Positions 47,553 to 49,629 are shown, counted from the stretch's first letter. The stretch is DNA of 64,000 nt from an uncultured bacterium (GCA_963729625.1 CAVSOU010000010.1:608001-672000); one strand, 5' to 3'. Translations and numbers: made by a program. The notes: a model not told the origin generated them from the letters alone.

Positions 47553-47700
47553 TGGGGGTGGGTTCTCCACGGAGAACATTGACCCGCGCATTTTCGTACC
47601 GTACGCTCAGCAATGTGCAGATCACGACTAGCCGAGTGAACGCCGACCTGCCTTGGCTTGATGATCCTCAATTGTCCCTACAGGCCGGGACTTGAGCCAG

Positions 47701-49128
47701 ATGAGACGTGAAACGATGAAAGTGAGCCGGCTTCAGCAAAATGCCGCGACGCCACAGCGTTCAAGTCGGACGCTGGCGGTTGCTCCGTTTGAGGGATTCG
47801 ATCGCTCAAACTGTTTGGCCGTCCAGCAGGAGATTATCGATGATCAGCTCGCGGGCTTCACGGAGGGCGAGCTGAAGGTCATGCTCATGGTCACAAGGGC
47901 AACGAACGGCGGCCAGCGCGAGGCAGTGCCGCTCAGCGTACGCGTCCTCTGTGAGGGGGGCGCTCCGGATTCGCTACCCGCGCGCGGCTCCGGACTCTCG
48001 CCACGCACGGTCCAGGCGGCGTGCTCGGCGCTGGAGGCGGCCGGCTTCCTGCGGGTCACTCGAAGGATTGCGCCGGACGGAAGCGGGCTTCCCTCACTCT
48101 TTACGTTGCCTCTCATTGTTCCGGGCATGCGCGACCCAAACGAACCTGCGTCGCCGAAGTTCCCCGGTTACGCTGCTGGGCGACGGGTCCGACTTCCAAT
48201 GCTTCTATTCGACCGCCTGCTGGCGGAGCTGTCCGGCGCCGAGCTCAAGGTCTTGCTCTACGTACTTCGACACACGTTTTGTGTGGGCGCGGCAGATGAA
48301 GTAATGCCGATGGCACGCCTGGTCGAAAACACTGGTCTCAGCCTGCGCCACACGCGGCTCGCGGTGTCTGCACTGACTACGCGCGGCGCGATTATGGTGC
48401 AACATCGCCAGGATCCAGACCACGGCAAGCTGGCCTCGCGCTTCGGCGTTAAGGTCATTGGCGAAGCCGCACCGTTCACCAGCGTGCCCTCTCCGGTGGC
48501 CGCCGCTCGCAGCGCGCGCGCGGACGAGCCAACTGCCGAGCAGACCCGCCCAGTCTGGCTTGTGCCCTCGATCGAGCCCCAGCCGGCTCGCCCGCCGGCG
48601 CTTGAGCCAGACTGTCCCGCGCCGGCCAAACCGGCAGCGCAAATCGTCGAGCCCGTGCCGCCGTTACAAGTCCTCGCAGCCGCGGCGGCACCACTGGATA
48701 AGCCTGTGCAAACGGAGCGCCCGACCCCCGTCGCAGCTGCGCGTTCGACAATGCCTCCAGGTTCTCCGACACCCATATTGGTCGCGGGCCAGTCTCCGAG
48801 AAGCAGTGTTCCGCCGGCTGTCCGCTCGGTTCCCGCGGCAATGACTCGTGACAACAGCCCCGTCTGGGCTGCCGTCAAACAGCTGCTGGCCGAACGGCTG
48901 CCCTACCCCGTGTTCGTCGAGCGAATCGCGCCAACTGCGAGCGTGGGCGACCAGGGACCGGAACTGCTTGTCGCCGTTCAGAATGAGCACCATCGCTGGT
49001 GGCTCGAATCCAAGCTCGGGATGCATATTCACCAGGCGATGGTCGACACGGGGCACGGAGACGTGAGCCTGCGCTACCTTAACTTCGTCGGGTCGTCCCC
49101 GAGCGAGACCACAGAGGGCCGGCACTAG
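47701..49128 (+). CDS. Replication-initiator-like protein: two Rep-O-like winged-helix repeats + Pro/Ala linker + DnaA_N-like C-terminal domain
   Basis: Duplicated F.G....D..LA....ELKV.L.V.R.T....GLS.R....A...L...G motif; C-terminal WAAVKQLLAERL...F...IAP...LLVAVQNEHHRWWLESKL. Confidence 0.6.
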   Translation: MRRETMKVSRLQQNAATPQRSSRTLAVAPFEGFDRSNCLAVQQEIIDDQLAGFTEGELKVMLMVTRATNGGQREAVPLSVRVLCEGGAPDSLPARGSGLSPRTVQAACSALEAAGFLRVTRRIAPDGSGLPSLFTLPLIVPGMRDPNEPASPKFPGYAAGRRVRLPMLLFDRLLAELSGAELKVLLYVLRHTFCVGAADEVMPMARLVENTGLSLRHTRLAVSALTTRGAIMVQHRQDPDHGKLASRFGVKVIGEAAPFTSVPSPVAAARSARADEPTAEQTRPVWLVPSIEPQPARPPALEPDCPAPAKPAAQIVEPVPPLQVLAAAAAPLDKPVQTERPTPVAAARSTMPPGSPTPILVAGQSPRSSVPPAVRSVPAAMTRDNSPVWAAVKQLLAERLPYPVFVERIAPTASVGDQGPELLVAVQNEHHRWWLESKLGMHIHQAMVDTGHGDVSLRYLNFVGSSPSETTEGRH

Positions 49129-49191
49129 CGGGAAGACTCGGCCTTACTTCTGGACATCTGTCGGAGCAGAGCAGGACCGTTTGCCGCAGCC

Positions 49192-49319
49192 ACGTAGGGC
49201 TACCTTGCGGTAGCCCTTGCCGAGCGGGGGGCAGACAAGACCCCGGAAGAACGGACCGCGTTGGAGGATGGGGGTGCGGCCCGCTCTTCCTGAGGTCATC
49301 CGTGGGGGGATGCCTACGC
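49192..49319 (-). ncRNA. Putative C-rich-loop small RNA (~128 nt)
   Basis: Three hairpins with C-rich loops plus a GCAA-tetraloop hairpin; G.U wobbles favour the minus strand; TACAGT -10 just upstream. Confidence 0.6.
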
Positions 49320-49350
49320 TCCTACTGTACTGCTGTGCGAGCCCCATATG

Positions 49351-49378
49351 GTTAAGCCGTCGTTAAGCGTTCGTTAAG
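49351..49378. promoter_or_regulatory. Three GTTAAG direct repeats at 11-bp period (OmpR/PhoB-type box)
   Basis: GTTAAG at 49351, 49362 and 49373. Confidence 0.6.
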
Positions 49379-49449
49379 ATGCTGCTACACAGGCGTCCTT
49401 GGTTCCCAAGTGCGTGTGCTCGGGGCTCGGTGCCGGGCTCTGCCGAGTC

Positions 49450-49478
49450 TTGGGAGTAGCCCATCGAGCCGGTACAAT
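49450..49478 (+). promoter_or_regulatory. Putative murJ promoter
   Basis: TTGGGA-N17-TACAAT. Confidence 0.4.
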
Positions 49479-49629
49479 ACAGGACGCGACACGGCCGCGG
49501 CGCGCTGCATGACGAACACTGGGCACAGACGTGTTGTGACCCTGGTGAAAACCTCTATCGCGAAGTTGCGGCCGACGGTCGGATTTCCGCACTGGCGTCC
49601 CAGTGTGCACGCAAGCTTGACGGAGGCGA

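What the first reader, a model, noticed from the sequence alone, without database searches (positions are those of the whole stretch)
49192..49329. Candidate novel sRNA with three C-rich anti-Shine-Dalgarno loops
Seen (minus strand, 5' to 3'): GCGUAGG, CAUCC[CCCCAC]GGAUG, a 21-bp stem with loop [ACCCCCAUCCUCCAAC], UGCC[CCCCGCUC]GGCA, AGGGCUACC[GCAA]GGUAGCCCU, with 3' CCUACGU able to pair with the 5' end. Three G.U wobbles favour this strand, and TACAGT (-10) sits just upstream. Known: exposed C-rich loops are the seed elements of actinobacterial 6C RNA, alphaproteobacterial cuckoo RNAs, staphylococcal RsaE/RNAIII and streptococcal csRNAs. Several RBSs in this window are G-run type (GGAGGGG, GGGGAG, GGGGGAUG). 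I know of no such family described in Chloroflexota. Inference: a trans-acting multi-target translational repressor.
Basis: partly seen in the sequence, partly recalled or inferred. Interest (0 to 1): 0.8.

Follow-up and report, generated by a model that had tools for sequence, protein, structure and literature searches.

The report
Phosphate-box-driven small RNA in Chloroflexota
This is very probably a real, roughly 120-base non-coding RNA gene of a few uncultured Chloroflexota, and its promoter looks like the one that switches on phosphate-uptake genes, so it is a candidate phosphate-starvation regulator whose expression and targets are still untested.

Summary
It is single-copy and non-coding. 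It lies between a DnaA_N/HTH-like ORF and murJ, not directly between valS and murJ.

Homologs occur at the same locus in 2 of 4 other species of the genus and on one metagenome contig. Two further species have only about 150 bp there and no element. Conserved parts are the 19-bp hairpin, its loop CCCCAUCCU(C/A)CA, a C-rich 5' hairpin, a C-rich linker and a 3' hairpin.

New here: the promoter is three CTTAAC repeats at 11-bp period, a 21-nt spacer and TACAGT, invariant in 4 of 4 homologs. The same layout precedes pstSCAB-phoU in three congeners and matches the published cyanobacterial Pho box (CTTAACCT x3). I infer induction under phosphate limitation.

The anti-Shine-Dalgarno repressor idea stays plausible but unproven: target complementarity was at chance level and no RNA data exist. 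It fits no Rfam family (ar14 13.9 bits, BjrC174 20.5 bits, both below their cut-offs). Verdict: a new lineage-specific sRNA of a known kind. Interest 0.5.

The parts
49351..49378 (-). Three tandem CTTAAC repeats at 11-bp period (49378-49373, 49367-49362, 49356-49351). Proposed Pho boxes, meaning binding sites for an OmpR/PhoB-family activator.
   Evidence: Invariant in 4 of 4 homologs while the spacer varies. TTAAC-N6-TTAAC occurs 8 times in the genome against about 0.1 expected. The same layout lies upstream of pstSCAB-phoU in G001, G003 and G004. It matches the published SphR Pho box, CTTAACCT x3 with 3-bp linkers (PMC1906773, passages read).
49330..49350 (-). 21-nt non-conserved spacer between the third repeat and the -10 hexamer. 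There is no -35 hexamer.
   Evidence: The length is identical (21 nt) in 4 of 4 sRNA promoters and 3 of 3 pstS promoters, while the sequence is not conserved.
49324..49329 (-). -10 hexamer TACAGT.
   Evidence: TACAGT in three homologs and TATAGT in the fourth.
49196..49317 (-). Predicted sRNA, about 122 nt. The start is inferred at about 7 nt after the -10 (49317 +/- 2) and the end at the foot of the last hairpin. Neither end has been mapped.
   Evidence: Fold z -5.98 on this strand against -0.95 on the other. Single copy in the genome. No conserved reading frame.
49297..49312 (-). 5' hairpin CAUCC[CCCCAC]GGAUG, presenting C-rich motif 1.
   Evidence: Kept in G001. Kept with a shorter stem and a CUCCCC loop in G002. 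A 3-bp GAC/GUC stem with a UCCCC loop is predicted in L053.
49241..49295 (-). Long hairpin of 19 pairs plus one bulge, including 3 G.U pairs.
   Evidence: 98.6% of cells are paired across 4 sequences. 3 pairs changed on both sides and 4 on one side. The G.U pairs would be A.C mismatches on the plus strand.
49260..49275 (-). 16-nt apical loop ACCCCCAUCCUCCAAC, containing the anti-SD-like CCUCC. Proposed seed.
   Evidence: CCCCAUCCU and CA are invariant in 4 of 4 homologs. Unpaired probability is about 1.0 in 4 of 4. The 16S 3' end reads GGAUCACCUCCUUUCU.
49218..49240 (-). C-rich linker, CUGCCCCCCGCUCGG in this genome.
   Evidence: All 4 homologs have a C/U-rich stretch here (CCCCUCCCCC, CUUUCUCC, CCCUCCACUCCC). 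The 4-bp hairpin is not conserved: 62% paired.
49196..49217 (-). 3' hairpin AGGGCUACC[GCAA]GGUAGCCCU with no U tract. Presumed terminator or 3'-end protecting stem.
   Evidence: Identical stem-loop in G001. Replaced by different stable hairpins in G002 and L053. The consensus terminator scan did not call it.
49450..49478 (+). Divergent sigma-70-like promoter TTGGGA-17-TACAAT, presumably for murJ. It is a neighbour, not part of the sRNA.
   Evidence: Conserved between G000 and G001.

Best explanation
An independently transcribed small non-coding RNA of about 120 nt on the minus strand.

Transcription: it starts from an activator-dependent promoter with no -35 box. Three CTTAAC repeats at 11-bp period sit 21 nt upstream of TACAGT. 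This is the same promoter design that precedes the pstSCAB-phoU phosphate-uptake operon in related species, and it resembles the cyanobacterial SphR/PhoB Pho box. The RNA is therefore predicted to be made when phosphate is scarce, through an OmpR/PhoB-family regulator.

Structure: a small 5' hairpin, a long 19-bp hairpin, a single-stranded linker and a 3' hairpin. Each of the first three displays an unpaired C-rich stretch. The invariant stretch is the apical loop CCCCAUCCU(C/A)CA.

Most likely mechanism (inferred, not shown): these C-rich stretches pair in trans with G-rich Shine-Dalgarno regions of mRNAs, block 30S binding, and so lower translation of a set of genes during phosphate limitation.

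My odds:
- real transcribed ncRNA gene: about 0.8
- Pho-type control: about 0.65
- trans-acting anti-SD repression: about 0.45
For: Structure and strand:
- z -5.98, -6.97, -6.23 and -4.75 on the sRNA strand in 4 of 4 homologs, against -0.95, -2.14, -1.87 and -1.65 on the other strand.

Conservation and synteny:
- Found in G001 (E 1.5e-28) and G002 (E 4.5e-13) of 4 congeners.
- Found on metagenome locus L053 (39 bits, E about 1e-6) out of the 4 of 6 murJ loci scanned.
- Always just downstream of, and convergent with, the ORF478 homolog.
- Long helix 98.6% paired, with 3 double-sided and 4 one-sided changes.
- Loop invariant and fully unpaired.
- Indels of 1 nt and no shared frame, so not coding.
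- Single copy.

Promoter:
- Repeats and -10 are invariant while the 21-nt spacer is free to vary.
- TTAAC-N6-TTAAC occurs 8 times against about 0.1 expected.
- 5 of 7 triple-repeat sites in G001 and G002 have a TAnnnT hexamer exactly 21 nt downstream.

Pho link:
- In G001 such a promoter precedes PstS, PstC, PstA, PstB and PhoU, all above NCBIfam cut-offs. A TTAAC pair precedes a divergent OmpR/PhoB-family regulator.
- The pstS orthologs of G003 and G004 have TTAAC-TTAAC-TTAAT + 21 nt + TACCGT.
- Other downstream genes are a metallophosphoesterase and PhnS-like or other solute-binding proteins.
- Published Pho box: CTTAACCT, at least three tandem 8-bp repeats with a 3-bp linker (PMC1906773).

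Anti-SD:
- The 16S tail carries CCUCC, and GGAG/GAGG peak 8-11 nt before starts.
Against: - No expression data of any kind.
- The 3' hairpin has no U tract, and the consensus terminator scan does not call it.
- With 4 sequences the covariation is not statistically significant on its own: 54 of 500 shuffles reach the covariation score and 10 of 500 reach the percentage paired.
- Target search is uninformative. For loop 2 the duplex energies with initiation regions have a median of -10.1 kcal/mol and a best-1% value of -20.0. Internal gene windows give -9.1 and -19.2.
- 12-nt complements occur 5 times, against about 4.5 expected by my estimate.
- The excess of 10-mers in initiation regions (11 of 88, against 1 of 33 for the reversed word) is expected for any word containing GGAGG.
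- One candidate site is kept in G001 and one is not.
- In G000 itself the only PstS-like gene has no TTAAC repeats. The pstCAB-phoU region and the regulator are not in this 87%-complete assembly. The Pho link therefore rests on congeners.
- The regulator scores below the PhoB cut-off (114 bits against 296) and its receiver domain looks atypical.
Confidence: 0.5

Rival explanations
1. The Pho-type promoter drives a cis-antisense transcript. The structured RNA is only the 5' part of a longer RNA that reads into the convergent ORF478 (a DnaA_N/HTH-like protein) and lowers its expression by antisense pairing or transcriptional interference.
For: The element is convergent with, and 55-340 nt from, the ORF478 homolog in 4 of 4 genomes, whereas the other flank varies between murJ, a lepB-like gene and a GAF-domain ORF. 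The 3' hairpin has no U tract. The next called minus-strand gene is about 8.4 kb away, so the RNA is not a 5' leader.
Against: Selection acts on the hairpins and the loop rather than on overlap with ORF478. A stable 3' hairpin is kept at the same place in all four homologs even though its sequence is replaced in two. Shared position is also explained by simple vertical inheritance of one insertion.
Confidence: 0.13
2. A protein-binding or sponge RNA. The C-rich loops are recognised by an RNA-binding protein, or they titrate a G-rich RNA, rather than pairing with many mRNAs.
For: Three C-rich unpaired modules are kept in all four homologs while their exact sequence drifts. No mRNA target stands out above chance.
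Against: The central loop is conserved at the sequence level, 11-12 invariant bases including CCUCC, which fits base pairing. No candidate partner protein is linked to the locus.
Confidence: 0.1
3. Not an RNA gene. The TTAAC repeats regulate the divergent murJ side, and the hairpins are a bidirectional terminator or structural DNA left by an insertion.
For: The repeats lie about 75-100 bp upstream of the murJ promoter in G000 and G001. G003 and G004 lack the whole segment. No transcript has been observed.
Against: Repeat orientation, the 21-nt spacing and the -10 hexamer point into the element, exactly as at pstS. In G002 and L053 other genes separate the element from murJ. The strand-specific fold and G.U pairs, and the invariant loop, are not expected of a terminator.
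Confidence: 0.1
4. A small protein gene: the 67-aa ORF at 49144-49347 on the minus strand.
For: An ATG-started 67-codon frame exists in G000.
Against: The frame is broken by 1-nt indels. The peptides diverge after the loop in G002 and L053, and no start codon is shared. No Pfam match.
Confidence: 0.01

Closest known systems
Cuckoo RNAs / alpha-r14 family of Alphaproteobacteria (Rfam ar14, RF02344; e.g. NfeR1)
   Same: Size of about 120-150 nt. Adjacent hairpins display C/U-rich anti-Shine-Dalgarno-like motifs in unpaired regions. Own stress-controlled promoter. ar14 was one of only three sub-threshold Rfam alignments, and it was on the correct strand.
   Different: The family is defined by 2-4 hairpins that each carry CCUCCUCCC (PMC4615179, abstract and passages). 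Here no loop has that motif and only one has CCUCC. The score is 13.9 bits against a gathering score of 58.8. The phylum is different.
BjrC174 sRNA of Bradyrhizobiaceae (RF02355)
   Same: Best sub-threshold Rfam alignment (20.5 bits, E 0.2). It has a long hairpin with a C-rich loop followed by a GCAA-capped terminal hairpin.
   Different: The score is below the gathering score of 45. Several stems do not align. The resemblance is in architecture only.
6C RNA of Actinobacteria, and RsaE/RoxS of Firmicutes (C-rich-loop sRNAs; properties recalled, not read here)
   Same: Unpaired C-rich loops are used, as far as I recall, as seeds against G-rich ribosome-binding sites.
   Different: No Rfam match to either family, even at E <= 10, over 49050-49700. 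Unrelated sequence and phylum.
Pho-regulon sRNAs: PhoS of Bacillus (PMC11522486) and EsrL of E. coli (seen only in that paper's reference list)
   Same: An sRNA whose promoter carries Pho boxes and which is induced by phosphate scarcity through the Pho response regulator (PMC11522486, abstract and passages).
   Different: PhoS is 66 nt and comes from the 3' UTR of phoR. Here the gene stands alone, far from any pho gene, is about 120 nt, and is unrelated in sequence. Induction is only predicted here.
Cyanobacterial SphR (PhoB) Pho box
   Same: At least three tandem 8-bp direct repeats, consensus CTTAACCT, separated by 3 bp, upstream of pst genes (PMC1906773, passages). Here the repeats read CTTAACGA, CTTAACGA, CTTAACCA at the same 11-bp period.
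   Different: Different phylum. Binding by a regulator is not shown. The candidate regulator in G001 scores below the PhoB and RpaB model cut-offs.

Membership tests
Cuckoo RNA / ar14 (RF02344) | 2-4 adjacent hairpins, each loop carrying CCUCCUCCC (PMC4615179) | tested here: not met
   The loops read CCCCAC, ACCCCCAUCCUCCAAC and CCCCGCUC. CCUCCUCCC occurs nowhere in the element (definition read).
Cuckoo RNA / ar14 (RF02344) | Covariance-model score at or above the gathering score (58.8 bits) | tested here: not met
   13.9 bits, E 4. No gathering-level match in the window or in three homolog loci.
BjrC174 (RF02355) | Covariance-model score at or above the gathering score (45 bits) | tested here: not met
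   20.5 bits, E 0.2.
6C RNA (Rfam) | Any covariance-model match | tested here: not met
   Not among the matches with E <= 10 over 49050-49700 on either strand.
Pho-box (PhoB/SphR-type) promoter | Three or more tandem direct repeats at 11-bp period resembling CTTAACCT, upstream of a -10 hexamer, with no -35 hexamer | tested here: met
   CTTAACGA-acg-CTTAACGA-cgg-CTTAACCA, then 21 nt after the third CTTAAC hexamer, then TACAGT. Invariant in 4 of 4 homologs. Published definition read.
Pho-box (PhoB/SphR-type) promoter | The same motif in front of hallmark Pho genes of the same lineage | tested here: met
   Upstream of pstSCAB-phoU in G001 and of the pstS orthologs in G003 and G004. That is 3 of the 3 congeners in which the ortholog was found; none was found in G002 or G000.
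Pho-box (PhoB/SphR-type) promoter | Binding by, and phosphate-dependent activation through, the response regulator | not testable with these tools
   Needs EMSA or footprinting, and reporter or RNA data.
Trans-acting base-pairing sRNA | A discrete transcript with its own start and end | not testable with these tools
   No RNA run holds the locus. The DNA contigs laid on it add nothing.
Trans-acting base-pairing sRNA | A conserved, accessible seed | tested here: met
   Loop CCCCAUCCU(C/A)CA is invariant and has unpaired probability about 1.0 in 4 of 4 homologs.
Trans-acting base-pairing sRNA | Complementarity to mRNA initiation regions above chance, conserved in relatives | tested here: inconclusive
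   Energy distributions nearly equal those of the controls. Long complementary words occur at the chance number. Of the two candidates compared with G001, one was kept and one was not.

The most novel reading that the evidence does not exclude
This is the first riboregulator described for Chloroflexota: a phosphate-starvation-induced mimic of the 16S anti-Shine-Dalgarno tail. It was recruited recently, within one genus, into an older Pho regulon. By occupying G-rich ribosome-binding sites with three C-rich modules it throttles translation of a gene set, or of translation broadly, when phosphate runs out.
Probability: 0.3. Interest if true: 0.65.

Novelty: new member of a known kind. Interest (0 to 1): 0.5.

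Why it matters
Regulatory RNAs of Chloroflexota are essentially uncharted. My one full-text search on this gave 4 papers, none describing such an RNA. Very few sRNAs are known to belong to a phosphate regulon. The 2024 PhoS paper states that almost all known regulators of bacterial phosphorus metabolism are proteins (PMC11522486, abstract).

If the prediction holds, this locus gives three things:
- a defined Pho-box consensus for an uncultured soil and sediment lineage;
- a case of a young sRNA captured by an old regulon, since the pst promoters of species without the sRNA already carry the boxes;
- another independent origin of the C-rich-loop, anti-SD design.

Its reach is narrow: three species and one metagenome contig. 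Everything beyond the sequence comparison still needs RNA data.

Tried and rejected
- **Rfam.** Gathering-level scan of the whole window and of four loci: only rRNA and tRNA matched. A permissive scan of 49050-49700 gave only sub-threshold BjrC174, S10 leader and ar14.
- **Dispersed repeat.** Rejected. There is one copy in the 5.4-Mb genome; the other matches are 15-27 nt with E >= 0.076.
- **Wider homologs.**
  - BLAST over 41 relatives: only G001 and G002 are significant. The other 21 genomes with 'matches' have short hits at E >= 0.0128.
  - Model R1 over the 21 genomes of the class: 3 of 21, counting G000.
  - Model R2 over 151 genomes of the phylum: G000 and G002, plus two weak hits (32 and 27 bits). 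Neither has TTAAC repeats in the upstream sequence shown. G138 also lacks the conserved loop, while G106 only partly resembles it. I judged both to be chance.
  - The unpublished genome G018 is among those counted as having no match.
- **Collection scans.** The exact-pattern scan of genome contigs found only G002's own record and a chance hit in a Rhizobacter contig. The pattern scan of metagenome contigs found 0. The murJ-guided metagenome scan gave 6 loci. I scanned 4; the other 2 hold no upstream DNA. One of the 4 (L053) carries the element.
- **Expression.** No RNA holder is listed. Laying the 4 DNA runs gave only identical low-depth contigs and no variants.
- **Target prediction.** Duplex scan of 27,509 candidate initiation windows, k-mer complement counts, an ortholog check of two candidates, and a check of ten Pho-regulon initiation regions. 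One value at the 1% level among ten is not significant. Gene calls came from my own rough codon-usage caller (3,976 genes, 79% coding), so start sites are approximate.
- **Identity of the repeat-binding regulator.** The GlnR-like and Bacillus PhoP-like (TT[ATC]ACA) comparisons were from memory only, and the paper I wanted was not held. The link to phosphate looked refuted when the single PstS-like gene of G000 showed no repeats. It was then recovered from G001, G003 and G004.
- **Co-occurrence of exact triple repeats with the sRNA.** G001 has 5, G002 has 2, G003 and G004 have 0. I dropped this as an argument because G003 and G004 carry the boxes with one mismatch at pstS.
- **Small-protein reading.** Rejected.
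- **Earlier notes of this scan.** Nothing found.

Full report
**1. What is there**

On the minus strand, after a TACAGT hexamer (49329-49324), the sequence holds the following:
- hairpin CAUCC[CCCCAC]GGAUG at 49312-49297;
- a long hairpin at 49295-49241, with 19 pairs, one bulged A, three G.U pairs and the 16-nt loop ACCCCCAUCCUCCAAC;
- a small hairpin UGCC[CCCCGCUC]GGCA at 49233-49218;
- AGGGCUACC[GCAA]GGUAGCCCU at 49217-49196.

Otherwise the description is accurate.

The minus strand folds with z -5.98 (0 of 200 shuffles as stable). The plus strand gives z -0.95 (37 of 200) (two searches gave -5.68 and -1.12 on a slightly longer stretch).

Clusters of three C>=5 runs within 100 nt occur 11 times in the genome. 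Eight fall inside called genes on one strand or the other, two are antisense to 23S rRNA, and this is the only other one.

The element lies in a 500-bp gap between a 478-aa ORF and murJ, both on the plus strand. valS is one gene further upstream, and an rRNA operon follows downstream. The ORF has only a weak Phage_rep_O match. The protein-atlas look-up suggests DnaA_N plus HTH, which is a lead only.

**2. Not a repeat, not a known family, not coding**

- It is single-copy in the 5.4-Mb assembly.
- Rfam gives nothing at gathering level. The only permissive matches on the element are BjrC174 (20.5 bits, gathering score 45) and ar14 (13.9 bits, gathering score 58.8). Both are on the minus strand, and both are sRNAs with C-rich loops.
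- The 67-codon ORF in G000 is not shared. One-base indels shift the frame in the homologs.

**3. Homologs**

- BLAST over 41 related genomes found the element in two of the four other species of the genus: G001 (77% identity) and G002 (75%).
- Both sit at the same place, just downstream of and convergent with the ORF478 homolog.
- In G003 and G004, ORF478 and murJ are only about 150 bp apart and the element is missing.
- A covariance model (R1) found nothing else in the 21 genomes of the class.
- A pattern scan of metagenome contigs found nothing.
- A murJ-guided scan gave 6 loci. I scanned 4; the other 2 hold no upstream DNA. One of the 4, L053 (murJ 68% identical), carries a diverged copy (39 bits, E about 1e-6) in the same orientation next to the ORF478 homolog.
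- A second model (R2) over 151 genomes of the phylum gave only G000 and G002 plus two weak hits that I judged to be chance.
- The element is therefore confined, in what was searched, to part of one genus. The record title of G002's contig calls it a Chloroflexota MAG.

**4. What is conserved**

- Across the four copies the long helix is 98.6% paired. Three pairs changed on both sides and four on one side.
- With four sequences this is not statistically decisive: 54 of 500 shuffles reach the covariation score.
- The apical loop keeps CCCCAUCCU and CA in all four and is predicted unpaired with probability about 1.0.
- Each copy also has a C-rich 5' hairpin loop (CCCCCC or CUCCCC), a C/U-rich stretch between the long hairpin and the last hairpin, and a stable 3' hairpin. 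The 3' hairpin's sequence is replaced in G002 and L053.
- Strand asymmetry of the fold holds in 4 of 4 copies.
A closing stem in another register can form in G001, so that point stays open.

**5. The promoter, and what it says**

Upstream of TACAGT there is no -35 hexamer. Instead there are three CTTAAC repeats at an exact 11-bp period (49378-49351), followed by a 21-nt spacer.

In the four copies the repeats and the -10 hexamer are invariant, while the spacer keeps its length but not its sequence.

TTAAC is rare in this genome: 1,006 occurrences on both strands. TTAAC-N6-TTAAC occurs 8 times where about 0.1 is expected.

In G001 and G002 there are 7 exact triple repeats and none of the reversed control pattern. 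Five of the 7 have a TAnnnT hexamer exactly 21 nt after the third repeat.

What follows them is informative:
- In G001 one such promoter precedes pstS-pstC-pstA-pstB-phoU, all five above the NCBIfam cut-offs. A TTAAC pair faces a divergent OmpR/PhoB-family regulator.
- The pstS orthologs of G003 and G004 carry TTAAC, TTAAC, TTAAT, 21 nt and TACCGT.
- Other downstream genes are a calcineurin-like phosphoesterase and several solute-binding proteins. One has its best, weak, matches to 2-aminoethylphosphonate binders.
[quoted passage not shown] This is the same design as here.

I therefore read the repeats as Pho boxes and the RNA as a member of the phosphate-starvation regulon.

Caveats:
- In G000 itself the only PstS-like gene (41% identical to G001's) has no repeats.
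- pstC, pstA, phoU, the regulator and the neighbouring rpiA and deoC are not found in this 87%-complete assembly. This looks like an assembly gap.
- The regulator scores below the PhoB model cut-off, and its receiver domain looks atypical by eye.
- Because G003 and G004 have the boxes at pstS but no sRNA, the regulon is older than the sRNA.

**6. Mechanism**

The 16S rRNA ends in GGAUCACCUCCUUUCU. GGAG and GAGG peak 8-11 nt before the starts I called. An exposed CCUCC-containing loop and further C runs can therefore pair with ribosome-binding sites, as in other C-rich-loop sRNAs.

I could not show more than that:
- Loop-to-initiation-region duplex energies are almost the same as for windows inside genes.
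- 12-nt complements occur 5 times, against about 4.5 expected by my estimate.
- The enrichment of 10-mers near starts follows from the GGAGG they contain.
- Of two candidates with 11-nt matches, one (an oxidoreductase-like gene) keeps 9 nt in G001 and the other (a GH25-like gene, named by eye) does not.
- Among ten Pho-regulon initiation regions one reaches the 1% level, which is not significant.

Expression could not be tested. No RNA run holds the locus, and the DNA contigs add nothing.

**7. Comparison with what is known**

- It works like cuckoo/alpha-r14, 6C or RsaE-type sRNAs but is not a member of any. The cuckoo definition is CCUCCUCCC in every loop (PMC4615179), and that is not met. 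No covariance model reaches its threshold.
- As a Pho-box-driven sRNA its functional neighbours are PhoS of Bacillus (PMC11522486, abstract and passages) and EsrL of E. coli, which I saw only in that paper's reference list. Both are unrelated in sequence and genomic setting.
- My literature searches found no report of an sRNA of this kind in Chloroflexi/Chloroflexota. Papers outside the held library, and supplements, were not seen.

**8. Verdict**

It is a real, lineage-restricted sRNA gene with high probability (about 0.8). It is probably under Pho-type control (about 0.65). Its anti-SD trans-repressor function is plausible but unproven (about 0.45).

Noticed in passing
G000 C4:6220, C7:185393, C7:270215, C7:271868, C11:110382 (outside the window); G001 loci L076, L078, L079, L080; G002 L077: A small regulon marked by TTAAC direct repeats at 11-bp period, often followed by a 21-nt spacer and a TAnnnT hexamer. 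It lies upstream of pstSCAB-phoU, a metallophosphoesterase, PhnS-like and other ABC binding proteins, a saccharopine-dehydrogenase-like gene, a GH26/LTD protein and a DUF4032 protein. It looks like the Pho regulon of this genus.
   Followed up: partly
L082:7881-8702 (G001): An OmpR/PhoB-family regulator is encoded divergently from pstS and is itself preceded by a TTAAC pair. It scores below the PhoB and RpaB model cut-offs. By eye its receiver domain seems to lack the usual acidic pocket, so it may be an atypical, phosphorylation-independent regulator.
   Followed up: partly
G000 whole assembly: No pstC, pstA, phoU, rpiA or deoC homolog was found at E <= 1e-20 with the G001 proteins. The block that holds them in G001 is probably missing from this 87%-complete assembly.
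   Followed up: partly
G000 C4:6220-6736 (locus L049:1521-2037): One repeat-type promoter lies about 490 nt upstream of its solute-binding-protein gene. That leaves room for a long leader or another small RNA. No Rfam family matches it.
   Followed up: partly
window 47692-49128 (+): The 478-aa ORF convergent with the sRNA is conserved in all five species. It has only a weak Phage_rep_O match. The protein atlas places it with DnaA_N plus HTH hypothetical proteins of Chloroflexota.
   Followed up: partly
L010 about 1700-2560 (G002); L053:1378-2391: The sRNA-to-murJ interval is variable. G002 has an extra gene there that resembles signal peptidase I by eye. L053 has a GAF-domain ORF.
   Followed up: partly
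window 49450-49478 (+): A sigma-70-like promoter, TTGGGA-17-TACAAT, lies about 150 nt upstream of murJ and is conserved in G001.
   Followed up: no
G001 L082 7343-7600, L084, L085: The pstS genes of G001, G003 and G004 have long (about 230 nt) predicted 5' leaders between the Pho-type promoter and the start codon.
   Followed up: no
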